The notes beneath the pieces were generated by a model that did not search any database, had not been told where the DNA came from, and saw nothing but the letters and a program-made list of their open reading frames with translations. From the IMG/VR virus record IMGVR_UViG_3300043468_001540, positions 1-64,000 of that record: a stretch of DNA of 64,000 bases; one strand, written 5' to 3'. The stretch comes from a virus. This document shows positions 11,598 to 58,508 of the stretch, piece by piece. How positions within the stretch are numbered: position 1 is the stretch's first letter; every line of letters begins with the position of its first letter. The position numbers and the translations under genes were made by a program.

Positions 11598-12287
11598 ATG
11601 GACTCTATTAATCAAATGTATAGGAAATTGGGGTTCGGTGGTCTAGTTTTTGGTTTACATACTGACACCGGTTTCGCTAATTATGTAGAACCTGAATATG
11701 ATACCCAAAATGTTATAGCAGGTATTGCTAACATAAATGACGGATTTGAAATAACAACAAGCGCTATTAATTCATTCATTGCAACTTCAGGGGTAGAACC
11801 GATAACTTCTCCAGTCGATGGTCTTGGATATCCGGTACAAGACCCTAGAAATCCAATTGATACTGTGGGCTTTTTTAAAGTAACAAGCTCCCCATCCGGG
11901 ACCCCAACGCCAGCTGAGTTTACGAGTGTAAGATTATCTGGGGTGTCTAATCCTCAAAATAGTGGATCGTTAGGCTTTTTTATAGCTTCCCCTAAAAATC
12001 AAAATTTTGAAGCTACCATTACAATACTAGGAGATTTGTATGAAGTATCTTCTATGAATAATTATGCTTATAGAATAACAGGAGACGAAGGATTATCTAT
12101 AATTAAGTATAATGGTAATGAAAATAAGAATTTTGATTTTATTTTAATTACAACGGAATTAACACCCCCAAGTGGATATGTAATAGATGATACTATTGAA
12201 TCATCTTCATCTTCTTCTTCGTCTATAGCGCCAAGCGCATCTTCTTCTTCATCAAGTAATATTTTTCAAATACCAATACTTAACTGA
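11598..12287 (+). CDS. Putative virion protein with C-terminal poly-Ser tail
   Basis: G/T/S/P-rich, ESSSSSSSSIAPSASSSSSS, TGTAATA upstream. Confidence 0.6.
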   Translation: MDSINQMYRKLGFGGLVFGLHTDTGFANYVEPEYDTQNVIAGIANINDGFEITTSAINSFIATSGVEPITSPVDGLGYPVQDPRNPIDTVGFFKVTSSPSGTPTPAEFTSVRLSGVSNPQNSGSLGFFIASPKNQNFEATITILGDLYEVSSMNNYAYRITGDEGLSIIKYNGNENKNFDFILITTELTPPSGYVIDDTIESSSSSSSSIAPSASSSSSSNIFQIPILN

Positions 12288-12339
12288 ATAAGAAAAATTT
12301 AACAAAAATAAAAAACAAATATTAGAAAGAAAAATTTTT

Positions 12340-13242
12340 ATGGCAGCAAAATGTAGAGGAACAATACCCAAATCACAAACAACATGGCCCACCTCAAGCA
12401 TAGGAGACACTGAAATATGGAGTCAATATGCAAATTCGGTGTTTCCATACGTAGTTATCGTACCGAACGTGTCTAAGAATAAATACGAATGGGCGCAAAG
12501 ACATAGTACTGGTTGGAGGGGAATAGGGTGGATGAGAAAACCATATGGCAAATATGAATTTTGGCAAGAGGGCAAATGTCGTGGTAATCAACTATGCGGC
12601 AAATGGGCGAGTGTTGGTAGTGTTAATACCGAAACCCTAGTATACAGGATAAATAATTCTAATACATGGACGACTACGACTATGAATGGATTTTTCGGTA
12701 ATACTTCTTCTGTTTATACCGATATATTAGATAAATTCCCTACTGGTAAGTTTGACTTTTACACTGGATTTACAAAAAATTGCGTACAGCCTAGCAAAAC
12801 ATCAAGTTTTAAAACAATTTATAAATTGCCATGGGCGATTTCTTGGACTTTGCCATCTAATAAAACAGTAGGATCATTTAACTTACCAAATTCATTTTTT
12901 GGAGCACCGTTTACTGTTAATGGTTATAAAGCTTGTTATCTTACCCCAAGTGGTCAAGGTGGTAACATGGTGTGGAGTTGTGCGCCGACAACAATCTCAA
13001 TACCGAGTACGAATGGTTTATATGCAGAAGCAGGAACTGGCTGGAATTTATCAAATCTTCCTAGCGCTTTTCCTAAAGTAACGGGTCTTTCTGTTGTATT
13101 GACTACAAGTGGACAGGTAATAGTTCAAAAGCCTTCTACGCTCAGACAAGTAAAATGGCACTGTAATATATCTGCTAATATACCACAAACAGGTGGCGAT
13201 ATTTCATCATTTTATCAACCTAAATTAGAAATTATTTTATAA
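12340..13242 (+). CDS. Putative virion/structural protein (W/C/T/G-rich, beta-rich)
   Basis: Composition and position in the plus-strand cluster. Confidence 0.55.
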   Translation: MAAKCRGTIPKSQTTWPTSSIGDTEIWSQYANSVFPYVVIVPNVSKNKYEWAQRHSTGWRGIGWMRKPYGKYEFWQEGKCRGNQLCGKWASVGSVNTETLVYRINNSNTWTTTTMNGFFGNTSSVYTDILDKFPTGKFDFYTGFTKNCVQPSKTSSFKTIYKLPWAISWTLPSNKTVGSFNLPNSFFGAPFTVNGYKACYLTPSGQGGNMVWSCAPTTISIPSTNGLYAEAGTGWNLSNLPSAFPKVTGLSVVLTTSGQVIVQKPSTLRQVKWHCNISANIPQTGGDISSFYQPKLEIIL

Positions 13243-13272
13243 TAATATCGTTAATTAATTATAATACAACAT

Positions 13273-13827
13273 ATGATAAACTTAAAACCGTTCAGACAGT
13301 ATAGTGAGCACGATGTAATCAATTTATTTAGTTATATTGGAAATTACCCAACCGAAGCCGGAACTATAGTAAAAATTACCCATAATTACCAAAATGATGG
13401 AAATGTTTTAAATATTTCCACGAATTTAACGTCTGCTAATAACGCCCTTTCTCCAATATTCGGAGTTGCCGGATCAGTTACAAAAGTTCTGGCTTTTAAC
13501 GAAACTCCACGACCAATCGGGATATTATTAAATAATGTGGCTGAATACGACGAAAATGGGGATCCATTAATATACAACCCAAGAAAAGCAGCGGAAACAA
13601 ATACCGTATTACCAAATCAGGCGGTTCCTATCTTAACTAAAGGCATTGTTTTAATTAATGAAATTGATCTATCAGATCGTGGAACTGGTGGTGGTGCTCC
13701 AGAAACAGGCGATACTGCTTATGTAGGGAATGATGGGAAAATAGGCACAGATGGTATTATACCAATTGGTCAATTTTTAAGCGAAATTGATTCAGATGGG
13801 TACGCTTTAGTTAAACTAAATTTTTAA
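13273..13827 (+). CDS. Putative capsid decoration/cement-like protein, paralog 1
   Basis: NLKPFRQYSEHDV..YDENGDPLIYNPRKAAE..QAVPILTKG..IGQFLS.ID.DGYA; clear paralog of 17855..18415. Confidence 0.55.
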   Translation: MINLKPFRQYSEHDVINLFSYIGNYPTEAGTIVKITHNYQNDGNVLNISTNLTSANNALSPIFGVAGSVTKVLAFNETPRPIGILLNNVAEYDENGDPLIYNPRKAAETNTVLPNQAVPILTKGIVLINEIDLSDRGTGGGAPETGDTAYVGNDGKIGTDGIIPIGQFLSEIDSDGYALVKLNF

Positions 13828-13834
13828 TATAAAT

Positions 13835-16800
13835 ATGTCTTCACCTATAACAAATACAGCCCTAAAATATAACTTAGGAAATGAAATTAACTGTTGCGGA
13901 ACAGCCGACTCTACTGTTCCGATCCCAACCTATAATACAGCTTCTGGCATTGCTTATTTGTACAATATAGGTAAACAGGTAACCAGTTGTGATTCTTACA
14001 TAGGGTTTTCTGGAAATCAGATAATCCAAACAACTCTTACGGTCAAACAAAAATATGCTTTAGGGCTAGAGCAGTGTAGCGATGAATATTTAGCATATCT
14101 CTCATCTAGTTCTTCTAGTCAAGTGGTATGGTGTGCGAATAATCCAATTCTATGTTGGGCCCAATCATCTTCAAGTGACGCTCAATTTTGTATTGATTTT
14201 CCAATTGCCTGCTGGTATAATTCATCCTCTTCAAGTCACGCCGCATGGTGTGCCGCGAACCCCGTTCCCTGCGCAAGTTCTTCTTCAAGTCAAAATACAT
14301 GGTGCGCCGCCAACCCTATCCCATGTGCAAGTTCTTCAAGCGAAGCTGCTTGGTGTCAACAAAATCCGCTACCATGTGCTTGGCAAGAATTCGTATCTTC
14401 TAGCTCTTCAAGTCACGCCGCATGGTGTGCCGCGAACCCCGTTCCCTGCGCAAGCTCTTCCTCAAGTCACGCCGCATGGTGTGCCGCGAACCCCGTTCCC
14501 TGCGCAAGTTCTTCAAGCCAAGCCGCATGGTGTGCCGCGAACCCCGTTCCTTGCGCAAGCTCACAATTTCAAGATTGGCTATCCTCCAGTTCTTCAGCAT
14601 GGTGTGCCGCGAACCCCGTTCCCTGCGCAAGCTCTTCAAGCCAAGCCGCTTGGTGTGAGGCAAATCCAGTGCTTTGCTCTTATCAAGATTGGCTGTCTTC
14701 TAGCTCTTCAAGCCAAGCCGCATGGTGCGCCGCAAATCCAGTGTCTTGCGCAAGTTCTTCAAGCCAAGCCGCATGGTGTGCCGCGAACCCCGTTCCCTGC
14801 GCAAGCTCTTCCTCAAGTCACGCCGCATGGTGTGCCGCGAACCCCGTTCCCTGCGCAAGTTCTTCAAGCCAAGCCGCATGGTGTGCCGCGAACCCCGTTC
14901 CTTGCGCAAGCTCACAATTGCAAGATTGGCTGTCTTCTAGCTCTTCAAGCCAAGCCGCATGGTGTGCCGCGAACCCCGTTCCCTGCGCAAGCTCTTCCTC
15001 AAGTCACGCCGCATGGTGTGCCGCGAACCCCGTTCCCTGCGCAAGTTCTTCAAGTCAGGCTGTTTGGTGCGCAGCAAATCCCGTTCCTTGCGCAAGCTCA
15101 CAATTTCAAGATTGGTTATCCTCCAGTTCTTCAGCATGGTGTGCCGCGAACCCCGTTCCCTGCGCAAGCTCTTCAAGCCAAGCCGCATGGTGTGCCGCGA
15201 ACCCTATCCCATGTATTGAGTATTTGTACAGTTCATCTAGCTCTTCGGCATGGTGCGCTGCCAATCCGGTAATATGCTCTATCATTAATTCTTCGTCTAG
15301 CGCCGCCGCATGGTGTGCCGCGAACCCCGTTCCTTGCGCAAGTTCTTCTTCAAGTCACGCCGCTTGGTGCCAAGAAAACGCTTTAATATGCTGGGTTTCC
15401 TCTAGTTCATCTAGTGCTGCCGCATGGTGCGCAGCGAATCCAATTATTTGCGCAAGCTCTTCCTCAAGTCACGCCGCATGGTGTGCTGCGAACCCCGTTC
15501 CCTGCGCAAGTTCTTCAAGTCAGGCTGTTTGGTGCGCAGCAAATCCCGTTCCTTGCGCAAGCTCACAATATCAAGATTGGTTGTCATCCTCTAGTTCTTC
15601 TAGTTTTGAAGAATGGTGCGAAAGTAACCCAGTTTCTTGTGTTAACTATAGTTCTTCTTCCAGTCAAGCCGCGTGGTGCATCGCTAATCCGATTTCCTGC
15701 GCAAGTTCTTCGAGTCAAGCCGCTTGGTGTTTAGCTAATCCCATCCCTTGTGCAAGCTCTTCAAGCCAAGCCGCTTGGTGTATTGCCAATCCGGTTGCAT
15801 GTTATCTGTCTAGTAGTTCTAGTTCTGCTGCCTTTTGCATCGGAAATCCCTGGGAATGCGCGCAAAATGACAGTTATATTTCTGGTTGTACTGGAGATGG
15901 GCGCGGGTGGAGTGGGTGCTGTAAAGAATTAGCCCTAACTACAACTGTAGCTAATCAAATATCATCAAAAATGATAAATGAGTTAAATAGTATTTATGGT
16001 AATAACTTAGTTTCTCGTGGAGAGCCCACTTCTTTAACATCCGCGTGCGAAGATAGACCATGTTGCGTATATGGGAAAATAACTGGTCAGGCTTATATAC
16101 CCCGTACCGTTCAAATATGTACAAGTGGATGGGAAGATTATACTTATCTACAAGAAAAGTGTGTAACTGCCAGTATTACGGGTAACTCAGGTTTGACTGG
16201 AATCGTTCTTGATACCCCATTGGTTATAAATGGGTACGCAAGATATAATGTATCTAAAACACCATTTAAAATACCATCGCCTTTTTATGTAGATGAATCA
16301 CCTTCATTCACGCCTAACTGCGCTGGCGGGCATGTTTGTAGTAGGGCTCGTTTTATACCAGTGGCGAAATTTGGATCTATTGAGATAAACGGAACCCCAG
16401 AAATTAATTTAGATAATGTTGGTGGAGCAACAGATTTGAAAAAAATTCCCATTGGGGCTAGTAATCAGGCAGAGAGAGAAAGTTATTTTACGATAACCTT
16501 GCCACAAAATCTAAATACAACGGAATTCTGGTCTAACGCAAACTTTTACTTGAAGTGCAATACGAGTAACAATAATTGTCATAATGGAATTACTTATGTA
16601 GTTTTAAATATAAATGGTACAAATACTACTATATTTAATTCTTGTATTGTTCCTGGCCAATTTAATCAGAAACCAATTGTTACACTCGAAACAAAATGCC
16701 AAGACATCGAGTTGACTGGACAAAGACTTGTTACCACATGTGTTCCTAGTGGGTATCTTTCACTAGAAAACGTCGTATTAGAAAGAAAATTCCTTTTACC

Positions 16801-17827
16801 GTGGAAAGATCCAGCCTCTGAAGGGTACAACGTCGAAATAACCGATAATTGTCCTAATTGTGGTGATAAAGCAGATTTACCTATTACGGAAACCATAGTT
16901 ATGAAAGACCCCGTCTTTAGTATCACTAGAGGCGGACGACCGGATTGCGCCGCAGGTACAACGGCAAGGTACGCTGATTGGGAAGACAATGGTCCAGATT
17001 GTCTTAACAAAATTCTATACATGTATGTAGATACGTCTTATTTAAAAGTAGCTGTCTATACTACAAATAGACTAGTACCTAGAATCGGAGGCAGTGTTCT
17101 TGATAAAATTGAGATTATACATTACGACAAATCTACGAAACAGACGAGTTATAAAGCATTAAACTCTCAAAATCCTGAAGACTTAACAAGTAATCCAACC
17201 TTTGTATTCCATAATGGTCCCGTAGAGTATTGGGGTACCCCCAAAGGTAGGGTCGTAGTTAGCGTACGAGTGGCTAAGTCTGATGATGCCGGCCATTTCT
17301 TTGAACTAGATACTAATTTCAATCGCGAGGCAATAAGACGTGTTGCTGTTACTCCGGAACTTCAACAAATAATTAATGGCGGAACTGGACTCCAAGACGT
17401 TATTACTCTTGGTGGCGGGCTAGCATTCGTATTGAAACGCGTTACGCTTGAATATAAAACACAAGCAGAGGCATGGGACAAATGGGTACTCGCAGGACGG
17501 GGACAAACAGCGACGCCGCCGCCAGCGCCATCGCCGTATTGGGCGTCACCTAGCGGACCTACTATTGACGGATTCTCCGAGGCTGGGGCTCCTTTCGGTC
17601 TTAGTAGAAAACATTTAGAGGCGGCGGCGCTTTTCGGGCGAAATAGTACCGAATGGGCAAAAGTTATGTTCGCAGGTTCAGAATTTGCTGATTTACTTAA
17701 GCTGACACCCGAGTGCCGCCCACCAATAAGCCGCCCATGGGATCCAACACCTCAAACGAGTTCTTCTTCTTCAAATTTTGCAGCCTTGCCCGTCTCGCCC
17801 GGTACAATTGCAAATATTTTCATATAA
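13835..17827 (+). CDS. 1330-aa Cys/Ser repeat protein, putative virion fibre/appendage
   Basis: About 30 WCxxNPxxC modules with poly-Ser spacers, followed by Cys-rich beta domains. Confidence 0.75.
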   Translation: MSSPITNTALKYNLGNEINCCGTADSTVPIPTYNTASGIAYLYNIGKQVTSCDSYIGFSGNQIIQTTLTVKQKYALGLEQCSDEYLAYLSSSSSSQVVWCANNPILCWAQSSSSDAQFCIDFPIACWYNSSSSSHAAWCAANPVPCASSSSSQNTWCAANPIPCASSSSEAAWCQQNPLPCAWQEFVSSSSSSHAAWCAANPVPCASSSSSHAAWCAANPVPCASSSSQAAWCAANPVPCASSQFQDWLSSSSSAWCAANPVPCASSSSQAAWCEANPVLCSYQDWLSSSSSSQAAWCAANPVSCASSSSQAAWCAANPVPCASSSSSHAAWCAANPVPCASSSSQAAWCAANPVPCASSQLQDWLSSSSSSQAAWCAANPVPCASSSSSHAAWCAANPVPCASSSSQAVWCAANPVPCASSQFQDWLSSSSSAWCAANPVPCASSSSQAAWCAANPIPCIEYLYSSSSSSAWCAANPVICSIINSSSSAAAWCAANPVPCASSSSSHAAWCQENALICWVSSSSSSAAAWCAANPIICASSSSSHAAWCAANPVPCASSSSQAVWCAANPVPCASSQYQDWLSSSSSSSFEEWCESNPVSCVNYSSSSSQAAWCIANPISCASSSSQAAWCLANPIPCASSSSQAAWCIANPVACYLSSSSSSAAFCIGNPWECAQNDSYISGCTGDGRGWSGCCKELALTTTVANQISSKMINELNSIYGNNLVSRGEPTSLTSACEDRPCCVYGKITGQAYIPRTVQICTSGWEDYTYLQEKCVTASITGNSGLTGIVLDTPLVINGYARYNVSKTPFKIPSPFYVDESPSFTPNCAGGHVCSRARFIPVAKFGSIEINGTPEINLDNVGGATDLKKIPIGASNQAERESYFTITLPQNLNTTEFWSNANFYLKCNTSNNNCHNGITYVVLNINGTNTTIFNSCIVPGQFNQKPIVTLETKCQDIELTGQRLVTTCVPSGYLSLENVVLERKFLLPWKDPASEGYNVEITDNCPNCGDKADLPITETIVMKDPVFSITRGGRPDCAAGTTARYADWEDNGPDCLNKILYMYVDTSYLKVAVYTTNRLVPRIGGSVLDKIEIIHYDKSTKQTSYKALNSQNPEDLTSNPTFVFHNGPVEYWGTPKGRVVVSVRVAKSDDAGHFFELDTNFNREAIRRVAVTPELQQIINGGTGLQDVITLGGGLAFVLKRVTLEYKTQAEAWDKWVLAGRGQTATPPPAPSPYWASPSGPTIDGFSEAGAPFGLSRKHLEAAALFGRNSTEWAKVMFAGSEFADLLKLTPECRPPISRPWDPTPQTSSSSSNFAALPVSPGTIANIFI
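14100..15860 (+). repeat. Coding tandem repeat, 51/54-nt units with higher-order blocks
   Basis: Core GCCGCATGGTGTGCCGCGAACCCCGTTCCCTGCGCAAG repeated near-identically; larger blocks recur at 14561/15098 and 15056/15521. Confidence 0.97.
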
Positions 17828-17840
17828 AATCTAAAAACAA

Positions 17841-17850
17841 GTGTAATTAA
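17841..17850 (+). promoter_or_regulatory. Putative late-promoter motif
   Basis: GTGTAATTAA just upstream of ATG 17855. Confidence 0.5.
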
Positions 17851-17854
17851 TAAT

Positions 17855-18415
17855 ATGCCAAACTTAAAACCATACAGACAGTACAGTGAAAATGATGTAG
17901 TAAACGGTTTATTTTCTTATTCCGGTCCTTTACCCATCAACAAAGGTACAATCGTTAAAATAACGAATAATTATAAAGATGCAGAAAATCAAATTTTTGA
18001 TATTACTGAACTATCAACTCATGCAAATGGAGTCGTCGCGCCTTTATTCGGCACAATAGGTCGAGTAGCAACGGTAGTAAATTTTAACGATAACGCTCGT
18101 CCATTAGGCGTCTTATTAAAAGACGTAAGAGATATTGACGAAAACGGGGATTTATTATTATATAATCCTAGAAAAGCCGCTGAAATGGATTGCTTATTAC
18201 CACATCAATCTGTACCAATATTAGTACGTGGAATTATAATGGTAAATGATTTTGATTTAACTGATCGTGGTGGCGGAGGTGGAGTTCCAAATCCTGGCGA
18301 CTCGGCATATGTGGGAAACAACGGTAAGATTGCTACCGAAGGTCTTGTTAAAATTGGCCAATTTCTTAGTGCTATAGATCAGGATGGCTACGCTATAGTG
18401 AGAATTAGTTTCTAA
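17855..18415 (+). CDS. Putative capsid decoration/cement-like protein, paralog 2
   Basis: Same motifs as 13273..13827. Confidence 0.55.
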   Translation: MPNLKPYRQYSENDVVNGLFSYSGPLPINKGTIVKITNNYKDAENQIFDITELSTHANGVVAPLFGTIGRVATVVNFNDNARPLGVLLKDVRDIDENGDLLLYNPRKAAEMDCLLPHQSVPILVRGIIMVNDFDLTDRGGGGGVPNPGDSAYVGNNGKIATEGLVKIGQFLSAIDQDGYAIVRISF

Positions 18416-19137: not shown

Positions 19138-19139
19138 TT

Positions 19140-24275: not shown

Positions 24276-25067
24276 TTAGTCTTTATCGTCAACGAAATGA
24301 ATGTTAGAAAATTTTGAAAGAGACGCTTCAAATACAGATTTATTTTTAAAATAAATATTATTATATAAATACACTTCTCTTTCTAGAAATAATCCACATA
24401 TAGCGAAGTGAAGCCTATTCGTATGAATAATCTTATATCTAGATGCTTTTTCAAAGTAATCATAAAAAGTATCGCAATTAAGAACTGGGTCTTCTTCTAA
24501 AGAAAGATTCTTTATGTTTAGTTTTACATTTTTTTCAATATCATCTCTAAAAAAATACCCCTTTTCTGATATTATGGGGCGTTTAATAAAGCTTTCTATC
24601 TTTGAATCGATTTCAAAACCTAGAGCTAAATCATGACAAAAAATTGCTTTTGGTTCGAAAAATGTACTATAATTGTCTCTTCTAAACATTTTGAAAAATG
24701 TACTATCATCTTTTGAGGTCCATGTTTGTGGTAAAATTACCATGTTTTTATGATTTTTATCGCATAAAATTTTAGTAAATCTTCTTAATTTCTGTGGATT
24801 ATGTACGATACTTTTATAAAAGTCCCCCATATTCCCACCCCCAGACCAAAAAGTAACGTCACTCTTAACGATATTTTTTTCTCTCTGTGACGGAGTATCT
24901 GCTGGAAATGTATTTATAATAGAAATGTCAAATTTTTTCATTAATTGGATTGCTCCTTCCCAAATAAGCCAATCACCAGCATTACCAAAAGGATACGCAA
25001 TATTCGCTATACATCCAGAATATTCTGAAAATAAATGACTAAAGTCATTTTTATTGTAAAGTTCCAT
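24276..25067 (-). CDS. Polysaccharide pyruvyltransferase-like protein
   Basis: GNAGDWLI, SGGGNMG, LPQT, RD..S, HDLA, TNRLHFAI. Confidence 0.85.
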   Translation of the reverse strand: MELYNKNDFSHLFSEYSGCIANIAYPFGNAGDWLIWEGAIQLMKKFDISIINTFPADTPSQREKNIVKSDVTFWSGGGNMGDFYKSIVHNPQKLRRFTKILCDKNHKNMVILPQTWTSKDDSTFFKMFRRDNYSTFFEPKAIFCHDLALGFEIDSKIESFIKRPIISEKGYFFRDDIEKNVKLNIKNLSLEEDPVLNCDTFYDYFEKASRYKIIHTNRLHFAICGLFLEREVYLYNNIYFKNKSVFEASLSKFSNIHFVDDKD

Positions 25068-35210: not shown

Positions 35211-35624
35211 TTATAAAGTCAATGAGAATTTTTCTTCTAGCCATTCCTCCGAAAGAAACTCGAATTCATTCTCAAAAATTTCAATAACCTTAAATCCGTT
35301 TAATTCTAACCACTCATGCTTTTGAAAATCTCTTTTTACGCTATTTTTAAAACCTGTTCTTGTTTTATGAAAATGTTTAACGAATTTTTCGTGCTGCAAT
35401 CCATGGGTTTCAACTGCAATTTTTTTTGTAAAATTAATTAAATCGCATTTCATTCTTGTTCCAAATACAGGGAACTCTTCTACTACCACATGAGTCTTCC
35501 AAAAATTAAAGAAAAATCTTTTAACTTTAAACTGAACTTTGCTTTTGCATGGATCATCCCATTTGACTAAAAATTTATTTATATTTTTATTAACTTCTCT
35601 TCCGAAGATGTTTTTAAATTTCAT
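35211..35624 (-). CDS. DUF559/Vsr-like endonuclease
   Basis: EFPV...D......AVETHGLQH...RD.QK..W...NG..VIEI. Confidence 0.75.
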   Translation of the reverse strand: MKFKNIFGREVNKNINKFLVKWDDPCKSKVQFKVKRFFFNFWKTHVVVEEFPVFGTRMKCDLINFTKKIAVETHGLQHEKFVKHFHKTRTGFKNSVKRDFQKHEWLELNGFKVIEIFENEFEFLSEEWLEEKFSLTL

Positions 35625-52702: not shown

Positions 52703-54616
52703 ATGAGAAAAAAAAGAATTTTATATTTGAGCGATTACGCTGGAGCGTATACTGGTTTTGGAAAACAAACTAAACTTTTATTAACTTACCTTTACAAAAC
52801 TGGTAAATATGAAATTTTAAATTTAGCGCAAGGCACCAGAAAAGATGGCCCGCACCAAACCAAATTTCCATGGAAAACCCTTGGGGTAATTCCTACCGAT
52901 CCGTCTTTCAATGATAAATGTTCAAAAGATCCAAATTTACCAAGAGCAGCGTCATATGGAATTCTAGAAATAAATAATGCAGTAAAAGAATTTAAGCCCG
53001 ACGTCATTTTCTCTGTAAATGATACCTGGGGATCTCAGTTTATTGCAGATCAACCATTTTCTTCTAAAATTCCGTATGTGTGCTGGAATACTTTTGACTC
53101 GCTCCCACTATTGAAAGATACGGTTGAAAAAGCAGGTAAAATTAAAAACTATTGGACTTGGAGTGATTTTGCAAGAAAAGAGTTTCATCGACTGGGATTT
53201 GAACATGTAAAAAATCAATATCCATTAGTCAATACTGATAGGTTTTATAAACTACCCGCCCAAAAAATAAATGAAATAAAAATTCAAAACTCTTTACCTG
53301 TTGATAGCTTTATTATCGGCTTTGTTTTTCGGAACCAATTAAGAAAACTAATCAATACTCAGATTGAAGCTTTCTCAATTTTTAAGAGAAAAAATCCACA
53401 TATTAAAAATGTGTATTTATATACACATACTCATTACTCTGAAGGTTGGAATATTCCTGATCTTTGTAAGCAATATGGAGTAAACCCAGAAGAAGTTTTA
53501 TGTACTTATATTTGTACCGTAACTAGGCAATATTTTATACTTCCGTTTAGAGGGCAAAATATAGAAAATCCAATAACGAAATCAAAAACTCTAATAACAT
53601 CTAACGCTGAAATTGGAGTTACAGACGAACAGTTAAATGAAATTTACAACATTTTTTCATTATATTCTCATCCAGCTACATCTGGAGCGTGCGAGTTACC
53701 ATGCGTTGAAGCTGCTTTAACAGAAAAAATTATAACAACTTGCGCTTATTCATTTGGAGATGATATAATAAACCTCAACAAAGGTAGCATTCCAATGCTA
53801 TTTAATTTTTACACTGAGCATGGGACACAATTTTTAAAATCACAACCTTATCCAGAAAGCATAGCCGATATCTTCTTACAAGTCTATTCAATGGACATGA
53901 ATAAAAAACTTGAATTAGAAAAACTATCAAGACAATGGGGTTTAGAAAACTACTCAATAGAAACAAATGGAAAAAAAATTGAAAATTTTATTGATGATTG
54001 CTGCGATTTTTTAGATTTTGAAAACATCGATTTAACAAAATCATCGGCTAATAACCCTAATCCTAATGCTGTAGTTGAACATACTCCGGATAATAAACAA
54101 TGGGTAAAAAATTTATACAAGTTCATTCTAGATAGGGAAGTTTCAGATCAGGACGAAGGGCTTTTGCACTGGCTTCAAAAAATTAGCATGAACGCCCCAA
54201 AAGAACAAATTGAGCAATATTTTAGGCAAGTCGCCTCTCAAGAGCAGGCTAAAAATAATCCTATTCAATTTGAAGAACTCTTAGATAAAAATGATAAGGG
54301 CAAAAGAGGTATTTTTGTGGTTCCAGGTTCGAAGTCAGATGTTTTATGCTCGATAAGTTTAGCGGAATCTTTTAAATCTACATATCCAAATTATAATTTA
54401 TATGTAGCAGTAAAATCAGAAAATTTTGATGTTATTGAAGGAAATCCCCTTGTTCATAAAATTTTGCCATATGTTGAAGAATTCAATAACCAAAATTGGT
54501 TAGAAGGTACAAAAGAAAATCCTGGTAATTTTGAAATTTCTTTTGTATTTTTGCCTGGCGATTTATATCGATATAACAATAAAATAAAAGCTAACTTAAA
54601 TCTTCAATCATGCTAA
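52703..54616 (+). CDS. GT-B (GT4-like) glycosyltransferase fused to a DUF4214-like repeat and a GT9-like C-terminus
   Basis: TGFG, FRNQLRK, LNEIYN.F, SGACELPCVEAA, LY..IL.R...D.EGL.HW, GNP.VHKILPY. Confidence 0.75.
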   Translation: MRKKRILYLSDYAGAYTGFGKQTKLLLTYLYKTGKYEILNLAQGTRKDGPHQTKFPWKTLGVIPTDPSFNDKCSKDPNLPRAASYGILEINNAVKEFKPDVIFSVNDTWGSQFIADQPFSSKIPYVCWNTFDSLPLLKDTVEKAGKIKNYWTWSDFARKEFHRLGFEHVKNQYPLVNTDRFYKLPAQKINEIKIQNSLPVDSFIIGFVFRNQLRKLINTQIEAFSIFKRKNPHIKNVYLYTHTHYSEGWNIPDLCKQYGVNPEEVLCTYICTVTRQYFILPFRGQNIENPITKSKTLITSNAEIGVTDEQLNEIYNIFSLYSHPATSGACELPCVEAALTEKIITTCAYSFGDDIINLNKGSIPMLFNFYTEHGTQFLKSQPYPESIADIFLQVYSMDMNKKLELEKLSRQWGLENYSIETNGKKIENFIDDCCDFLDFENIDLTKSSANNPNPNAVVEHTPDNKQWVKNLYKFILDREVSDQDEGLLHWLQKISMNAPKEQIEQYFRQVASQEQAKNNPIQFEELLDKNDKGKRGIFVVPGSKSDVLCSISLAESFKSTYPNYNLYVAVKSENFDVIEGNPLVHKILPYVEEFNNQNWLEGTKENPGNFEISFVFLPGDLYRYNNKIKANLNLQSC

Positions 54617-55800
54617 CATTAGAAAATTATTCCTTAAACTCAGGTTTAAAATACTCAAAACCAATTATACATGAAGTCTTCTATCCAATTACTGCTAGCA
54701 AGTATATTATAATAGAAACAACGGATAAAAAAGAAGAAGGCATTTCAAAATCAACAATTTGGTCTCAAATTGCTATTGATTTAGACAGCGTGCTAGCTAA
54801 ACAAAATTCTGATATTAAAATACTTTTATTAAGCCCCCAAGGATACGGAATAGATGAAACAAAAAACATTATTTCCTTAAATAGGAAAAGCATCACGTTT
54901 AAGCAGTTAGCATATATTATTAAAAATAGCTTACTATATTGCGGAGAAAAAGATGATTCTATCATGCTCGCTTCTATTTTCGAAAAAAAAATAGTTCAAG
55001 TTTCAAGCTTTGTCAGCAGTTCTAAACCTTTTTGGTCGGATTCTAAAGATTATATTTCAATTGATTCCGAAGATATAAATACACCAATATACCCAGAAAT
55101 TATCACTAACTCTATTCTAGATAAATTAAATCTAAATAAACTTAAAAATCATAAAACAATTTATATAGGTAGCAACTATATTTCTCCAATTATTTTAGAA
55201 AGTACGCCGGATATGGTTTGCACCAATGTTGCGGTTAACATGCCATTACATATTAGATATGATTTCGTAAAATCTTTTTCAGAGGAAGATATAAGAAATA
55301 CTATTTCTAACCTGCAAGGAAGAAAATGCGCAATAATTACCAATAAAAATATTCCGATTGAAAGTTTCTATCCATTAAAAGATAATATTATCTATATAGT
55401 TTACGACGTAACAGAGTCCTTGGATATAGATTTTCTTAAAAAAGCAAATTTTGTTTCTAGTAACATTAAATTAATCTTTTTAAAAAAGAGTCCTCTTGAT
55501 GATCCCATAATAGAAAAAAGAAAATTTGATCTAATAGATACTCATTATATATTAGAAATAATCGATATGTCTAATAAAAAAGTGGCGGATATAGACTTTA
55601 AAAGCAACGCCTCCTACAAAAGCAAAAAAATTCTTTTATCTAAAAATAAAGTTTTTTATAGCAAAGCTGCAATGTTGTCGGGCAAACCAATTCAAAGCGC
55701 ATCAGAAAATGTGTATCAAAAAATTTCAGAAATAAGCCCAAAATACCGAGACGATTTCTTAAAAGAAGAAATAGATTTCTGTTATTTATCATTGACATAA
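54610..55800 (+). CDS. Degenerate GT9-like / hypothetical protein
   Basis: QLAYIIKNSLLYCG.....LAS.F.KK.V resembles GT9. Confidence 0.5.
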   Translation: MLTLENYSLNSGLKYSKPIIHEVFYPITASKYIIIETTDKKEEGISKSTIWSQIAIDLDSVLAKQNSDIKILLLSPQGYGIDETKNIISLNRKSITFKQLAYIIKNSLLYCGEKDDSIMLASIFEKKIVQVSSFVSSSKPFWSDSKDYISIDSEDINTPIYPEIITNSILDKLNLNKLKNHKTIYIGSNYISPIILESTPDMVCTNVAVNMPLHIRYDFVKSFSEEDIRNTISNLQGRKCAIITNKNIPIESFYPLKDNIIYIVYDVTESLDIDFLKKANFVSSNIKLIFLKKSPLDDPIIEKRKFDLIDTHYILEIIDMSNKKVADIDFKSNASYKSKKILLSKNKVFYSKAAMLSGKPIQSASENVYQKISEISPKYRDDFLKEEIDFCYLSLT

Positions 55801-55820
55801 TTTTCATATTATATCAATAT
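55792..55820 (+). promoter_or_regulatory. Sigma70-like promoter
   Basis: TTGACA-N17-CAATAT, 8 nt upstream of ATG 55829. Confidence 0.45.
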
Positions 55821-55828
55821 ATGAAGAT

Positions 55829-56602
55829 ATGGAACAAAACGAATTTTTCCAAAAAATATCGAAATGCGCCCGCAATGAGTATGGGTTGATGTCATCTGTT
55901 GAATATATATTAAACGATGACAATACAATTAATTGGCGATCAATGCTTAAAAAAGAGCATCTAGTCCCGAACAGAGATGCCTTTAAAGATAAATCTAATC
56001 TAAAAAATATAGACGTCTCTACACTTCCAGACAATCAATTATTAATTTTGCTCGCCGGAATTAAAGAACTAGCTCAAATCCGTGGCTTTAATAATGTTAA
56101 ATATAAAGTAATACAGGCCAGTCCAGAGTATGTAGCTGTAAAATGCACTATTAACTGGATTCCTAATTTTGAAACGAATAATCAGCCAGTATCATTCTCT
56201 GCCCTTGCGGACGCACATCTAGACAATACAAAAGATTTTGCTAAAAATTTTTTAATGGCAATTGCAGAAAACAGGGCTTTTATTCGGTGTGTTCGAAATT
56301 TTCTAAAAATAAATATTGTTGGAAATGATGAAATAGGAAAAACAACTTCTTCTGTTGAGGCCCTGATAACAGAAAATGAACATCCAAATATGGATATAGC
56401 CCAACCGATTGCTCTATTGAAACAAACAATGGAAAAATATGGTATTTCTTTTGATCAAATAAAAGAAAGGGCTGTTCAGAAAAATATGGATGGGGCTATA
56501 AACTGGTCAAGTATAGAAGACATGACACCATTGGCAATGTTTACAGTTATTAGTGGGATAAAAAAACGGGCAAAATCTAAGTCACAGGTGGAGGAAAAAT
56601 AG
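55829..56602 (+). CDS. Putative Rad52/Sak-like single-strand annealing protein
   Basis: L.GIKELA, AVKC.I, ADA, AIAENRAF.RCVR..L.I...G.DEI. Confidence 0.55.
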   Translation: MEQNEFFQKISKCARNEYGLMSSVEYILNDDNTINWRSMLKKEHLVPNRDAFKDKSNLKNIDVSTLPDNQLLILLAGIKELAQIRGFNNVKYKVIQASPEYVAVKCTINWIPNFETNNQPVSFSALADAHLDNTKDFAKNFLMAIAENRAFIRCVRNFLKINIVGNDEIGKTTSSVEALITENEHPNMDIAQPIALLKQTMEKYGISFDQIKERAVQKNMDGAINWSSIEDMTPLAMFTVISGIKKRAKSKSQVEEK

Positions 56603-58508
56603 TTTTCTCAGAAAAATCCGCCTCTAACCATCCATTAACACGAAGTTTAAAATCATCTAAATTCCAATTAGCGTTTACGGTTCCGTCTATACAAACACGT
56701 TCGGAGCCAGAACTAGAGGATGAACTACGATTATAGACAGCTTTTAAAGATTGAACTTCAAAGCGAAGGCACTCAAAAGTAAGTTTTTCTTCACCAGCGT
56801 CCGTTTTTATAAATAAAGGTAGTTCTATTTTTTTTAGTTTTTTTTCTTTTTCATCTTCTAGTTCGTTATCTACTATATCATTTATATCCACGGTTGATAA
56901 TAGTACGCCCCTATCAATTAATAATGAAGCCTGATCTTTTGTAGCCCCATCTACTTTATACTTTAAAGGAAACTCCTCATAAAATTTTTTACCATCTTTA
57001 CTTTTCAGAGCGGCCGCCTCAAAATCTCCGGCATTCCAAACGGCCTGATTAAGATAACTACGAACTTCAGACTCAATATCTACATAAAATATATATTCTT
57101 TTGTACTTTCTATATAAAGTGGGGTAGATAGAGAGTAAATTAAAATATAGCCCGTTGCATCACTCATAGCATTACCTAAATTTGACTGATCGGTTTTAAT
57201 AGTAGCCTCTCCTAAGTTTTTAGATTTAAACTCTCTATTTGATGTTAAAAAGTTTTCATTTTTTTCATCAACGGGTGGCCTGTCTTTTATTTGATAAGCA
57301 AATCTAACTAACTTACTATTTTGAAATGTGCTCCTTTCATATAAAGGAGTTAAAATGGGATCATTTATAAGAGTTGAATTTAATGGAAAGTTAATATTAG
57401 TTTTTGTTTGATCTGGACTGCTATCCCCGCCTTGGAATAATTTTTTAAATTCTTTTTCATCAAACTTCCACTCATCTTTATAAATAATTAAAGAATTTAC
57501 GTGCAGCGTTTCATTCTTACCAAGAACAGAACTTGATGAACTCCCCGGATCTCCTACTGAACCGTAAAACATATTCATGCTAGTCGGCGAAATTCTATTC
57601 TTTAGGTTTGATTCATCAAAAATTTTACCAGTATCAATCTTAAGACTTCCAGTTATTTTTTTTGAGTGTTTTCTTTGGCACTCATATCCAGTTGAAACGA
57701 CTCCAGCCAAACGCCCAGTATCAGGATTTGTTTTTTTATATTTTGGAGGACAACAGCACAATGCATCAGAATAGTCATTATCGGGGCGACTACAAGCCGG
57801 TACAAAACTCACTCCTTGAGCGACACTAACATTTGCTATGATGGTGTCTGATTCAGTATCTTTTACCTCCATCGATGTTACGGTACTATGAGGATCATCT
57901 ATTTTAGCAGTAATTTCAACTTCTATCTCTTCATCTATTAAAGCCTTTTCTACTTGAGCTTTTGAAAGATTAAAAGGACCAGAAGACCTACTTCCACAGT
58001 CTGATGCATTATTTAAATTTATTGTTCCTAATTGGTTACCACCAGCAGAAAAAGAAAATATAGCTCTATCACAACAATGACCGCCACTTTCTTTTTTATA
58101 TTCAGCAAAAAAACTTACTGGGGTTGGAATACAGCAAGTTCTTGATATTGGCCCTTTAGTGTCTCCCTGTATTGTAAAATTAAAATTATGATCGAATCCA
58201 TGGCTTTTTATTAAGTTGTGAAATAAACAGCGAAACTTACCCAAATCTTGCAATTTTACAATTACATAATTTTTTAAAGCATTTTTCTTTGATGTCTCGC
58301 TTTCGTCAGGATAAACAACCTCTCTTGTTTCCTCTTTCTTTTCGAATTTAACAAATCCATTTCCAGTATTTTCTTTTGTTTTCGGTACGCAGTTAATAAT
58401 AGGCCAATCTGCATATAAATATTTTGGAGTACCACCTTCAAATTCTGGTTTTAAATAGTCAAAAAGATAAAATCCATGAAAAAGATGGTTTACTATTGTT
58501 GCTGCCAT
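56577..58508 (-). CDS. Putative virion/tail-associated protein with Cys-rich insert
   Basis: GGHCCDRA module, Cys clusters, poly-Ser patches. Confidence 0.55.
   Translation of the reverse strand: MAATIVNHLFHGFYLFDYLKPEFEGGTPKYLYADWPIINCVPKTKENTGNGFVKFEKKEETREVVYPDESETSKKNALKNYVIVKLQDLGKFRCLFHNLIKSHGFDHNFNFTIQGDTKGPISRTCCIPTPVSFFAEYKKESGGHCCDRAIFSFSAGGNQLGTINLNNASDCGSRSSGPFNLSKAQVEKALIDEEIEVEITAKIDDPHSTVTSMEVKDTESDTIIANVSVAQGVSFVPACSRPDNDYSDALCCCPPKYKKTNPDTGRLAGVVSTGYECQRKHSKKITGSLKIDTGKIFDESNLKNRISPTSMNMFYGSVGDPGSSSSSVLGKNETLHVNSLIIYKDEWKFDEKEFKKLFQGGDSSPDQTKTNINFPLNSTLINDPILTPLYERSTFQNSKLVRFAYQIKDRPPVDEKNENFLTSNREFKSKNLGEATIKTDQSNLGNAMSDATGYILIYSLSTPLYIESTKEYIFYVDIESEVRSYLNQAVWNAGDFEAAALKSKDGKKFYEEFPLKYKVDGATKDQASLLIDRGVLLSTVDINDIVDNELEDEKEKKLKKIELPLFIKTDAGEEKLTFECLRFEVQSLKAVYNRSSSSSSGSERVCIDGTVNANWNLDDFKLRVNGWLEADFSEKTIFPPPVT

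What the first reader, a model, noticed from the sequence alone, without database searches (positions are those of the whole stretch)
11598..58508. Candidate virion O-glycosylation system: poly-Ser tracts in putative structural proteins plus a large glycosyltransferase arsenal
Seen: runs of Ser in three putative virion proteins (the C-terminus of 11598..12287, about 30 linkers in 13835..17827, and patches in 56577..58508). The runs use mixed TCN/AGY codons, which points to selection for Ser rather than slippage. The same window holds about 16 glycan genes (GT2, GT4, GT6, GT9-like, GT11, GT25, GT61, pyruvyl-, sulfo- and methyltransferases). Established: some actinobacteriophages glycosylate capsid and tail proteins with their own glycosyltransferases, and GT61 includes protein O-GlcNAc transferases such as EOGT, which acts on Cys-rich EGF repeats. 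Inference: the Ser linkers are mucin-like acceptors that give the virion a phage-made glycan coat.
Basis: inference. Interest (0 to 1): 0.85.

Follow-up and report, generated by a model that had tools for sequence, protein, structure and literature searches.

The report
Serine-run phage particle proteins plus sugar enzymes
A large uncultured phage puts runs of serine on three likely particle proteins and carries about a dozen sugar-handling genes; in 16 related phages such serine runs appear and disappear together with one specific two-gene sugar-transferase cassette, so a sugar-coated particle is plausible, but no sugar has been seen and that cassette is not in this window.

Summary
The serine runs are real. 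Runs of 4 or more Ser occur only in 3 of 65 ORFs: 35 runs against 1.8 expected by shuffling, with mixed TCN/AGY codons. They are conserved in homologues down to about 30% identity. The 1330-aa protein holds 30 modules of S4-7 followed by [W/F]-C-x2-N-P-x2-C and has no relatives beyond copy-number variants of itself.

The glycan gene count is about 13 (11 solid), not 16. A GT9-like enzyme was confirmed as a split gene; no sulfotransferase was found.

Sixteen relatives were recovered from IMG/VR. All of them, including members with no Ser runs, keep GMD and the GT4-like/split-GT9 block. The window's GT11/GT6/GT25-GT61/FkbM/pyruvyl island is unique to this phage. What tracks Ser runs is a two-gene cassette (a GT-B Glycos_transf_1 enzyme plus a 265-aa partner). 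It is present in 5 of 5 informative Ser-run genomes and cleanly absent at the same site in 6 of 6 genomes without runs. Two of those six (one a complete genome) are nested inside the Ser-run clade. Orthologous tail proteins gain and lose Ser runs accordingly.

So a link between tracts and a transferase is supported for the family. The cassette is not in this window. This scan has flagged the same theme on other phage DNA before.

The parts
11598..12287 (+). 229-aa orphan protein (P0001). A roughly 200-aa body is followed by S8, a short variable spacer, S6 and a conserved C-terminal peptide N-x-F-Q-I-P.
   Evidence: Homologues at 68% and 63% identity keep both Ser runs and the tail peptide. No Pfam, PHROG or Atlas assignment.
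12340..13242 (+). 300-aa conserved Cys-containing protein that travels with P0001. Its function is unknown.
   Evidence: Only 4 homologues in 1.84 billion clusters. One of them lies on the same 19,851-bp contig as the P0001 homologue.
13273..13827 (+). Cement/decoration-like protein, paralogue A.
   Evidence: PF22758 Phage_cement, E=6.5e-6, 26.8 bits against a cut-off of 27. It is 57% identical to paralogue B. In relatives the single orthologue lies inside the long structural operon.
13835..17827 (+). 1330-aa protein (P0002). It has an N-terminal domain of about 90 aa, 30 modules of S4-7 plus [W/F]-C-x2-N-P-x2-C (residues about 90-676), a Cys-rich C-terminal domain of about 630 aa, then S5 and a short hydrophobic tail.
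   Evidence: The only database relatives are 1151- and 1154-aa copy-number variants; one lacks exactly 179 aa (537 nt).
14102..15862 (+). The repeat array inside P0002. It is 51% GC in a 30% GC genome. Central units are near-identical and edge units are diverged.
17855..18415 (+). Cement/decoration-like protein, paralogue B.
   Evidence: PF22758, E=0.0011, 19.5 bits.
24276..25067 (-). Polysaccharide pyruvyltransferase.
   Evidence: PF04230, E=1.7e-7, above cut-off. No homologue in 16 relatives.
25083..26864 (-). Two-domain glycosyltransferase, GT25 (N-terminal) plus GT61 (C-terminal).
   Evidence: PF01755 E=1.3e-12 and PF04577 E=6e-22. Nearest solved chain is POMGNT2, E=0.04. No homologue in relatives or in GenBank phages.
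35614..36759 (-). GDP-mannose 4,6-dehydratase, the first step towards GDP-6-deoxyhexoses such as fucose.
   Evidence: PF16363, E=4e-102. Conserved at 53-62% in 15 of 16 relatives, including Ser-free ones.
36806..37582 (-). GT11-family (alpha-1,2-fucosyltransferase type) enzyme.
   Evidence: PF01531, E=4e-30. Only G006 has a homologue, at 41%.
37579..38241 (-). FkbM-type methyltransferase.
   Evidence: PF05050, E=3.4e-15.
38238..38900 (-). GT2-like protein (weak hit).
   Evidence: PF00535, E=2.4e-4, below cut-off.
38904..39536 (-). FkbM-type methyltransferase.
   Evidence: PF05050, E=5e-5, just above cut-off.
40288..41019 (-). FkbM-type methyltransferase.
   Evidence: PF05050, E=3.3e-16.
41000..41677 (-). 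GT6-family enzyme (blood-group A/B transferase family).
   Evidence: PF03414, E=4e-34. Best solved match is Bacteroides ovatus BoGT6a, E=5.8e-36. The phage has D-A-D where BoGT6a has N-A-N.
41637..42545 (-). SDR sugar-nucleotide epimerase/reductase.
   Evidence: PF01370, E=1e-50. GalE-like and Fcl-like matches are below equivalog cut-offs.
42542..43474 (-). GT2-like protein (weak hit).
   Evidence: PF13641, E=6.6e-4, below cut-off.
52703..54616 (+). 637-aa protein (P0027). It has a GT-B (GT4/GT1-like) part, a DUF4214 part and a C-terminal stretch that looks like a GT9 N-lobe.
   Evidence: phrog_2170, E=1.4e-16. DUF4214 E=8.6e-5 and Glycos_transf_1 E=0.054. Identity is 59-68% in all 16 relatives. 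The N-lobe was read by eye only.
54610..55800 (+). 396-aa protein (P0028). Its first 180 aa or so are a GT9 C-lobe (donor side); the rest is unknown. It is one half of a split GT9.
   Evidence: Family profile A6 matches residues 206-346 of E. coli heptosyltransferase II (1PSW, E=2.4e-7) and GT9 entry 3TOV (E=0.0018). Present in 15 of 16 relatives.
55829..56602 (+). 257-aa conserved partner (P0029) of the P0027/P0028 block. Its function is unknown.
   Evidence: 56-70% identity in 15 of 16 relatives. No family hit.
56577..58508 (-). 643-aa Cys-rich protein (P0003) at the far end of the tail-side operon. It has Ser runs at residues 323-327 and 595-600.
   Evidence: In 9 homologues the C-terminal run is kept in 6, down to 29-33% identity. 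In the AF2 model both runs lie in low-confidence loops. Profile matches in G003, G004, G006 and G007 carry S11-S15 runs.
58514..59056 (-). 180-aa protein that travels with the P0003 family.
   Evidence: Homologues at 39-40% sit next to the P0003-like gene in G003, G004, G006 and G007.

Best explanation
The Ser runs are selected features of proteins that act outside the cell: tail-fibre-side and head-decoration-side proteins of a roughly 120-150 kb, 30% GC phage. Most likely they are exposed O-glycosylation sites, modified in the cytoplasm by phage-encoded soluble glycosyltransferases before or during assembly. The result would be sugar-coated fibres and linkers.

Within this phage family the initiating enzyme is best assigned to a two-gene cassette: a GT-B Glycos_transf_1 enzyme plus a 265-aa partner. 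It comes and goes with the tracts. That cassette is not in this window, so for this phage its presence is a prediction.

The genes in the window would supply and shape the sugar. GMD and the SDR make a GDP-6-deoxyhexose. The family-wide GT4-like/split-GT9 block and the phage-specific island would extend and decorate a glycan that differs from phage to phage. The island comprises GT11, GT6, GT25-GT61, three FkbM methyltransferases and a pyruvyltransferase.

Shown: the tracts, their conservation, the enzyme families and the co-variation in relatives. Inferred: that the proteins are in the particle, that Ser is the acceptor, and that the window's enzymes act on it.
For: (1) Ser runs are confined to 3 of 65 ORFs and are about 20-fold over chance.

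(2) The runs are conserved at fixed positions. Both P0001 runs are invariant at 63-68% identity. The P0003 C-terminal run is kept in 6 of 9 homologues, down to about 30% identity.

(3) In the P0003 model the runs sit in disordered loops. P0002 and P0003 are Cys-rich (6.3% and 2.2%) and lack signal peptides, as expected for proteins that fold outside the cell.

(4) There are 16 relatives (PolIII 72-79% identity). Eight have 3-16 Ser runs of 5 or more, up to 111 residues long, nearly all in large genes downstream of the 3001-aa TMP-like gene.

(5) Of 1053 protein clusters only 4 track Ser status. Two of them are an adjacent pair: a Glycos_transf_1 enzyme (E=1.1e-9) and a 265-aa partner.

(6) The pair is present in 5 of 5 Ser-run genomes where it could be found. 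It is absent in 6 of 6 genomes that hold the syntenic site. In complete genome G005 the two flanking genes abut directly.

(7) G005 and G009 are nested inside the Ser-run clade with 94-100 SH-aLRT support. This gives at least 2-3 independent co-changes.

(8) Orthologue contrasts agree. Cluster 108: G001 has runs [9,7,6], G005 none. Cluster 204: G002 has S37, G005 none. Cluster 289: G003/G006 have up to S111, G009 none.

(9) In G011 the cassette (44.4-46.2 kb) lies among the fibre-side genes that carry Ser runs.

(10) No glycan-gene product in the window has a membrane segment, and no flippase, polymerase or priming transferase was found. This fits soluble cytoplasmic enzymes.

(11) Precedent: mycobacteriophage glycans on the C-termini of capsid and tail-tube proteins (Freeman 2023, as summarised in PMC12619734), and Ser-specific hyperglycosylation of adhesins by TibC (PMC4358343).
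Against: No sugar has been observed on any protein.

The tract-linked cassette is absent from this window, and no window protein resembles it (tblastn; hhalign probabilities under 10%).

GMD and the P0027-P0029 block persist in Ser-free complete genomes (G005, G015, G016). The conserved sugar genes therefore have a job that does not need Ser runs.

The window's island has essentially no homologues in relatives (only a 41% GT11 in G006 and 24-28% FkbM/SDR hits), so nothing ties it to the tracts.

The window's tracts are short (4-8 residues). P0001 and P0002 are absent from all 16 relatives; P0003 gives no BLAST hit there and appears only as weak profile matches in 4 of them. The family result therefore transfers to this phage only by analogy.

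The co-variation rests on only 2-3 independent events.

Poly-Ser linkers exist in secreted bacterial enzymes, and no modification is reported for them in the genome papers read.

Virion membership is positional. The cement hits are just below cut-off, and the P0002 C-terminal model failed.
Confidence: 0.45

Rival explanations
1. The Ser runs are plain flexible, hydrophilic spacers between folded modules and are not modified. They would resemble the polyserine linkers of secreted carbohydrate-active enzymes. Under this reading the sugar genes act on something else, most likely host envelope glycans during infection: receptor masking, superinfection exclusion, or keeping progeny from sticking to debris.
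For: Polyserine linkers between small Cys-containing modules are well known in extracellular enzymes of Saccharophagus, Teredinibacter and Cellvibrio. Their function is unknown (PMC2386152 and PMC2699552).

P0002 is built the same way, with tiny disulfide-type modules separated by Ser.

The conserved sugar genes (GMD, P0027-P0029) are kept by Ser-free relatives.

A hypervariable island at a fixed site resembles surface-antigen loci.

GT25, GT11 and GT6 are families known from LPS/LOS and O-antigen synthesis. The best solved GT6 match is a Bacteroides enzyme.
Against: This reading does not explain why a GT-B cassette is gained and lost with the runs, at one site, in nested lineages, with orthologues switching state.

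The window holds no priming transferase, flippase, polymerase or ligase, and no membrane-bound GT.

Runs of 60-111 Ser in relatives are longer than a spacer needs.
Confidence: 0.3
2. The sugar genes hypermodify phage DNA by attaching glycan chains to modified bases. Under this reading the Ser tracts are unrelated to them.
For: Phage GTs are classically DNA-modifying, and multi-sugar DNA glycans are now described (bioRxiv 2023.12.21.572611, listed).

The island sits inside the replication and nucleotide module, between dnaB-side genes and recA, beside dCMP deaminase and ThyX.

One weak PHROG hit is to a beta-glucosyl-HMC glucosyltransferase (E=0.005).
Against: The window has no base hydroxymethylase or TET/JBP-type gene; its only 2OG oxygenase is of the PF13640 type.

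GT11, GT6, pyruvyl- and FkbM-type enzymes act on oligosaccharide acceptors. I know of no such set for DNA (own knowledge).

This reading does not explain the link between cassette and tracts.
Confidence: 0.07
3. In P0002 the acceptor is not Ser but a residue inside the Cys loop. It could be the near-invariant Asn of N-P, as an atypical N-linkage like that of chlorovirus capsid protein. Or it could be a hydroxylated Pro. The Ser runs would then be spacers.
For: Asn is 29/30 and Pro 29/30 in the loops.

Chlorovirus Vp54 carries virus-made, fucose-rich, methylated N-glycans at non-canonical sites, including N-I-P-G (PMC9614988).

The window encodes a PF13640 2OG-Fe(II) oxygenase at 700-1278, GMD and three methyltransferases.
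Against: N-P is also a plain turn motif. This reading does not account for the tracts in P0001 and P0003, or in relatives that lack the loops. No N-glycosyltransferase candidate was identified.
Confidence: 0.05

Closest known systems
Mycobacteriophage virion glycosylation (Che8, Corndog, Myrna; Freeman et al. 2023, Cell Host Microbe; paper not held here, known through PMC12619734 and PMC11256854)
   Same: Phage-encoded glycosyltransferases and exposed acceptor stretches at or near the C-termini of particle proteins. The P0001 tract lies within the last 30 residues, and P0002 has an S5 run 22 residues from its end.
   Different: The host type is different: a low-GC aquatic-type phage, host unknown. 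The acceptors are homopolymeric Ser, mostly on fibre-side and decoration-side proteins rather than capsid and tube. The enzyme set is far larger, with sugar-nucleotide synthesis, methylation and pyruvylation. Nothing has been shown by mass spectrometry.
Polyserine linkers of secreted carbohydrate-active enzymes (Saccharophagus degradans, Teredinibacter turnerae, Cellvibrio; PMC2386152, PMC2699552)
   Same: Ser-only spacers between small folded modules in extracellular proteins.
   Different: Those linkers average 39-44 residues and sit in secreted enzymes. The window's runs are 4-8 residues, in phage proteins without signal peptides. In the phage family the runs co-vary with a glycosyltransferase cassette.
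Ser-directed hyperglycosylation of bacterial adhesins: TibC/AAH heptosyltransferases (PMC4358343). From my own memory, also the GtfA (GT4)/GtfB pair acting on serine-rich-repeat adhesins.
   Same: A cytoplasmic GT-B enzyme, with a partner in the GtfA/B case, decorates many Ser residues of a repetitive surface protein encoded nearby. TibC modifies Ser and not Thr.
   Different: No sequence similarity was shown: PDB sequence searches with both cassette proteins found nothing. The phage GT9-like enzyme is split between two genes and is kept by Ser-free relatives, so it is not the tract-specific enzyme.
Chlorovirus and mimivirus capsid/fibril glycosylation (PMC9614988)
   Same: A virus-encoded, host-independent cytoplasmic pathway with GMD, many GTs and sugar methyltransferases, producing virus-specific glycans.
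   Different: Those are eukaryotic giant viruses with N-linked glycans (chlorovirus) or fibril glycans. No homology of the acceptor proteins was found.

Membership tests
Phage virion O-glycosylation system (mycobacteriophage type) | Phage-encoded glycosyltransferases present | tested here: met
Phage virion O-glycosylation system (mycobacteriophage type) | Glycan covalently attached to particle proteins | not testable with these tools
   This needs mass spectrometry or glycan staining of particles.
Phage virion O-glycosylation system (mycobacteriophage type) | Acceptor stretch and transferase gained and lost together across relatives | tested here: met
   Met for the family: cassette present in 5 of 5 Ser-run genomes and absent in 6 of 6 without runs, with nested losses and orthologue contrasts. 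For this window's own genome the cassette could not be looked for outside the 64 kb.
Phage virion O-glycosylation system (mycobacteriophage type) | Tract-bearing proteins are particle components | tested here: inconclusive
   Position only. P0003 ends the tail-side operon. P0002 is flanked by cement-like paralogues scoring 26.8 and 19.5 bits against a cut-off of 27. Ser-run genes in relatives lie downstream of the TMP-like gene.
GT61 / EOGT-type protein O-GlcNAc transfer onto EGF-like repeats | PF04577 catalytic domain | tested here: met
   E=6e-22.
GT61 / EOGT-type protein O-GlcNAc transfer onto EGF-like repeats | Acceptor Ser/Thr inside a disulfide loop of the repeat | tested here: not met
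   26 of 30 C-x6-C loops have no Ser or Thr; the Ser runs lie outside the loops.
GT61 / EOGT-type protein O-GlcNAc transfer onto EGF-like repeats | Specific relatedness to EOGT rather than to other GT61 enzymes | tested here: inconclusive
   The only solved GT61 match is POMGNT2, E=0.04.
GT9 (heptosyltransferase-type GT-B) | C-terminal (donor) Rossmann lobe | tested here: met
   The P0028 family profile matches WaaF 1PSW residues 206-346, E=2.4e-7, and 3TOV, E=0.0018.
GT9 (heptosyltransferase-type GT-B) | N-terminal (acceptor) lobe on the same polypeptide | tested here: not met
   P0028 starts at the C-lobe. An N-lobe-like stretch ends the preceding gene P0027, read by eye only; no Pfam GT9 hit.
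Phage_cement (PF22758; E217 gp24 / Pam3 gp6) | Score at or above the curated cut-off | tested here: inconclusive
   26.8 and 19.5 bits against 27. The G015 orthologue scores 22.8 bits. No PDB sequence match.
GT6 (A/B transferase family) | Family domain and DXD metal motif | tested here: met
   PF03414, E=4e-34. D-A-D aligns with the N-A-N of metal-independent BoGT6a.
Polyserine linker (PSL) as defined for marine CAZymes | Long (tens of residues), at least 80% Ser stretch joining modules of an extracellular protein | tested here: inconclusive
   The window's runs are only 4-8 residues, while relatives reach 21-111. Export or particle location has not been shown.
Two-gene GT-B cassette linked to Ser tracts (this phage family) | Homologue present in this window | tested here: not met
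   tblastn and hhalign against all window ORFs were negative. The rest of the genome was not available.

The most novel reading that the evidence does not exclude
A whole family of roughly 120-180 kb aquatic phages runs a modular particle-glycosylation system with three parts. A universal core (GMD plus a GT4-like/split-GT9 block) initiates or extends a glycan on particle proteins. A plug-in two-gene GT-B cassette opens poly-Ser tracts as extra acceptor sites, and these tracts then spread by minisatellite expansion into fibre, tube-side and even tape-measure proteins. A hypervariable island sets a phage-specific sugar code; here it would be an H/A-blood-group-like, methylated and pyruvylated glycan. 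P0002 would then be a phage-made mucin: 30 disulfide-pinned, glycosylated modules forming a bottle-brush fibre on the head.
Probability: 0.2. Interest if true: 0.85.

Novelty: new variant of a known kind. Interest (0 to 1): 0.6.

Why it matters
Sugar-coated phage particles have been shown by experiment only in mycobacteriophages. If this family does the same, glycan coats would be a general strategy of tailed phages. They could serve against adsorption to decoys, proteolysis or grazing, or for sticking to polysaccharide-rich particles. Poly-Ser or poly-Thr tracts would then become a readable genomic marker.

The family found here offers a natural experiment that makes the question directly testable. 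Close relatives exist with and without the tracts and a two-gene transferase cassette, inserted at one site. The cassette can be co-expressed with a tract-bearing fragment and the product weighed.

P0002 is also a new kind of repeat protein: 30 modules of Ser run plus C-x6-C, with no relatives among 5.8 billion proteins.

Tried and rejected

Searches that found no relatives:
- P0001, the 300-aa protein and the P0003 family, as single sequences or alignments, in IMG/VR, JGI metagenomes and GenBank phages.
- The GT25-GT61 protein in GenBank phages.
- The W-C-A-A-N-P-V-P-C motif: absent from IMG/VR, with one chance-level hit (about 35 expected) in a Hyphomicrobiales MAG.

Structure work:
- The single-sequence AF2 model of the P0002 C-terminal domain failed (pLDDT 29.6).
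- The P0003 model (pLDDT 68.7) gave no Foldseek match. VIA-align found only a generic beta-sandwich at residues 124-242, Z up to 6.1, below the tool's own noise level.
- ESM Atlas gave nothing for P0001 or P0002.
- PDB sequence searches with the cement paralogues, the 300-aa family, P0027, P0028 alone, GT11 and both cassette proteins found nothing meaningful.

Annotation gaps:
- A Pfam HK97 capsid model found no capsid gene in four relatives, so the '374-aa capsid' next to the cement orthologue is positional only.
- No sulfotransferase was found, and no family for 39533-40282, 18412-20126 or 23266-24252.

Motif rejected: GTGTAA upstream of starts was checked as a possible late-gene mark. It precedes 10630, 17855, 23266 and also the RNR small-subunit gene, so it does not separate particle genes from others.

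Not run: complex prediction. An enzyme-substrate or orphan pair was unlikely to give a usable verdict.

Full report
WHAT THE WINDOW IS. The window is 30% GC and densely coded. It holds a phage replication and nucleotide module: a split PolIII-alpha replicase, DnaB, primase, RecA, RNR, ThyX and dCMP deaminase. Unchecked notes from earlier readers place the tail operon, tape-measure gene, capsid gene and lysis genes beyond the window's end. No whole genome is held.

THE OBSERVATION. Runs of four or more Ser occur in exactly three of 65 ORFs.
- 11598-12287 (P0001): S8 and S6 within the last 30 residues.
- 13835-17827 (P0002): 31 runs.
- 56577-58508 (P0003): S5 and S6.

That is 35 runs against a mean of 1.8 (maximum 6) after shuffling each protein. 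Ser accounts for 35 of the 44 homopolymer runs of four or more residues in the window. Codons inside the runs mix TCN and AGY.

P0002 contains 30 cores of [W/F]-C-x6-C, each preceded by S4-7. Cys is 30/30 at both positions, Asn 29/30, Pro 29/30 and Trp 28/30. Edge units differ from central units largely at synonymous sites. The array is 51% GC in a 30% GC genome.

Two database variants of P0002 are identical outside the array but shorter. One lacks exactly 179 aa, which is 537 nt, one higher-order block. This could be natural copy-number change or assembly collapse.

THE GLYCAN GENES. Nine genes reach curated Pfam cut-offs: pyruvyltransferase, a GT25+GT61 fusion, GMD, GT11, three FkbM methyltransferases, GT6 and an SDR epimerase.
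- 52703-54616 (P0027) is a PHROG glycosyltransferase (E=1.4e-16). It also has a DUF4214 part and a weak Glycos_transf_1 hit.
- Earlier notes of this scan described, in other genomes, a GT9 enzyme split between this gene and the next. I tested that. A profile of 11 members of the P0028 family matches only the C-terminal lobe of E. coli heptosyltransferase II (1PSW residues 206-346, E=2.4e-7) and a second GT9 entry. The N-lobe at the end of P0027 I could read only by eye.
- Two GT2-like hits are below cut-off.
- I found no sulfotransferase.

The count is therefore about 13 genes, 11 of them solid.

None of these proteins has a membrane segment. The window has no flippase, polymerase, ligase or priming transferase.

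ARE THE THREE PROTEINS PARTICLE PROTEINS? This is probable but positional.
- P0003 is the last gene of the minus-strand operon that runs in from the tail region. Its homologues in four relatives sit at the same place.
- P0002 is flanked by two 57%-identical paralogues. They hit the cement-protein family just under the cut-off, at 26.8 and 19.5 bits against 27.
- In relatives the single orthologue lies inside the long structural operon. It sits between conserved 606-aa and 374-aa genes, upstream of connector-sized genes and a 3001-aa TMP-like gene. That is where a head-decoration gene would be expected, but I could not annotate its neighbours.
- P0002 and P0003 are Cys-rich and lack signal peptides. 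This fits proteins that fold after release from the cell.
- P0001, the 300-aa protein and P0002 are orphans.
- Compared with G001, the whole stretch 9474-20126 is an insertion specific to this lineage.

ARE THE TRACTS SELECTED? Yes.
- P0001 homologues at 68% and 63% identity keep both runs, while the spacer between the runs varies. They also keep the peptide N-x-F-Q-I-P that follows.
- In nine P0003-family members the C-terminal run is kept in six, including members at 29-33% identity. New runs appear in other loops.
- In the AF2 model of P0003 (pLDDT 68.7) both runs fall in low-confidence loops.

THE RELATIVES. P0027 led to 16 IMG/VR contigs of 36-178 kb, four of them complete with terminal repeats. 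I fetched them whole.

They are one family with the window's phage: PolIII 72-79%, DnaB 71-82% and RecA 71-81% identity, and they are syntenic. Three results follow.

Result 1. The conserved sugar genes are GMD and the block P0027-P0028-P0029. They are present in essentially every member, including those with no Ser runs at all. The window's other glycan genes have no homologue in any relative, apart from GT11 in G006 (41%) and weak FkbM and SDR hits. Each phage carries different genes at the same site between the dnaB-side genes and recA. The 'arsenal' as such therefore does not track the tracts.

Result 2. Ser runs are bimodal across the family.
- Eight genomes have 3-16 runs of five or more Ser, with lengths up to 60, 66 and 111. 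Nearly all are in large genes downstream of the TMP-like gene.
- In G011 the runs are even inside conserved tail-side genes and the tape-measure-like gene.
- Six genomes have none, three of them complete. Two genomes have only two or three short runs.

Result 3. I clustered all 1053 protein families and asked which are present in at least 5 Ser-run genomes and in none of the five Ser-free genomes. Four clusters qualified.
- Two are an adjacent gene pair: a 346-aa GT-B enzyme (Glycos_transf_1, E=1.1e-9) and a 265-aa protein of unknown family.
- One is the 180-aa partner of P0003.
- One is a short ORF that is probably spurious.

tblastn confirms the pair in G001, G003, G006, G008 and G011 and nowhere else. 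At the syntenic site G003 reads flank, GT, partner, flank. The complete Ser-free genome G005 reads flank, flank. G009, G010, G014, G015 and G016 also hold the site without the pair.

On a six-protein tree, G005 and G009 are nested inside the Ser-run clade (support 94-100). The other Ser-free genomes form a separate clade. That gives two or three independent co-changes.

Orthologous proteins switch state accordingly:
- Cluster 108: G001 has runs of 9, 7 and 6; G005 has none.
- Cluster 204: G002 has S37; G005 has none.
- Cluster 289: G003 and G006 have up to S111; G009 has none.

In G011 the pair lies among the fibre-side genes that carry the runs. Ignoring phylogeny, 5/5 against 0/6 is unlikely by chance (about 1 in 460). 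With phylogeny the number of events is small, so I call this strong suggestion and not proof.

WHAT THIS MEANS FOR THE WINDOW. tblastn and profile comparison of both cassette families against all window ORFs are negative.

The window's phage sits on a long branch at the base of the Ser-run clade. The cassette may lie in the unseen 54-88 kb, or this lineage may use another initiating enzyme.

The EOGT analogy does not fit. The Ser runs lie outside the Cys loops, 26 of 30 loops have no Ser or Thr, and the GT61 domain is not specifically EOGT-like.

MECHANISM I THINK MOST LIKELY (0.45). Soluble phage transferases O-glycosylate the exposed Ser runs in the cytoplasm. In the family the initiating step belongs to the GT-B cassette. 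GMD and the SDR supply a GDP-6-deoxyhexose. The conserved GT4-like/split-GT9 block and the phage-specific island extend and decorate the glycan. Here the island has GT11 and GT6, which in other systems build Fuc-alpha1,2-Gal and add alpha1,3-Gal/GalNAc, together with methyl and pyruvyl groups.

RIVALS.
- Plain polyserine linkers, with the sugar genes aimed at the host envelope (0.3). Such linkers are well known in secreted marine enzymes, and the conserved sugar genes clearly have a job in Ser-free phages.
- DNA glycan hypermodification (0.07).
- An acceptor inside the Cys loop, either the invariant Asn or a hydroxylated Pro (0.05). This recalls the non-canonical N-I-P-G site of chlorovirus Vp54.

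COMPARISON WITH WHAT IS KNOWN. Particle glycosylation has been shown for mycobacteriophages, at the C-termini of capsid and tube proteins (Freeman 2023, as summarised in PMC12619734). Ser-specific hyperglycosylation of repetitive surface proteins by cytoplasmic enzymes is known in bacteria (TibC, PMC4358343).

This scan has already noted poly-Ser or poly-Thr particle proteins next to transferases in many other phage genomes. Some of those genomes share the P0027 block.

I therefore rate this finding a new variant of a known kind. It has two features of its own: the family-level natural experiment, and P0002, a repeat protein without relatives.

Noticed in passing
window 41000-41677: The phage GT6 has D-A-D at the position where the metal-independent Bacteroides ovatus enzyme has N-A-N. 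It may therefore be metal-dependent like the vertebrate A/B transferases, although its best match is the bacterial enzyme.
   Followed up: partly
window 13835-17827: Other assemblies of the same phage encode P0002 variants of 1151 and 1154 aa. One lacks exactly one 537-nt higher-order repeat block. This could be natural copy-number change or assembly collapse. The ORFs 14133-15272 and 15414-15734 are open alternative frames of the GC-rich array and are not genes.
   Followed up: partly
window 45571-48447: Both ribonucleotide reductase subunits have homologues only in the distant clade (G012, G014-G016). Their identity of 76-85% is higher than that of the core replication genes to that clade (about 72%). 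The closer relatives lack them. This suggests module exchange between clades.
   Followed up: no
window 31792-32223: The dCMP deaminase is about 70% identical to those of G005 and G009 but only 25-37% identical to those of the other relatives. An allele appears to have been replaced inside an otherwise collinear module.
   Followed up: no
window 9474-20126: Relative to G001 this roughly 11-kb stretch is a lineage-specific insertion. It sits between conserved genes (8605-9171 and 20138-20602) that lie about 3 kb apart in G001. It holds P0001, the 300-aa protein, two cement-like paralogues, P0002 and three ORFs without relatives in these genomes: 9474-10571, 18412-19137 and 19140-20126.
   Followed up: partly
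window 700-1278: A PF13640 2OG-Fe(II) oxygenase, the family type of prolyl hydroxylases, with no homologue in the 16 relatives. It could in principle hydroxylate the N-P-x-P loops of P0002. This is pure speculation.
   Followed up: no
L055 (G006 81616-84912): A 1098-aa fibre-side protein has a run of 111 Ser built from a 15-nt unit, (AGC AGT TCG TCG TCG)n. Across the relatives TCG makes up 28% of Ser codons inside runs, against 6% outside.
   Followed up: partly
G011 16494-31261 and 44407-46208: In G011, Ser runs (S46, S6+S6, S8) have entered conserved tail-side genes and the 3367-aa tape-measure-like gene. The GT-B cassette sits among the fibre-side genes instead of at the usual site.
   Followed up: partly
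G005 107770-113633: Ser-free genomes share a different sugar cluster: GT17 (E=5.8e-28), an FkbM methyltransferase and unknown genes. It is absent from the Ser-run genomes.
   Followed up: partly
window 3929-4312: A small predicted lipoprotein with an N-terminal hydrophobic stretch ending in V-A-G-C.
   Followed up: no
window 10608, 17841, 24265 (minus strand), 48457 (minus strand): GTGTAA lies 10-20 nt upstream of several start codons. These include 10630, 17855, 23266 and the RNR small-subunit gene. It may be a promoter element and is not specific to particle genes.
   Followed up: partly
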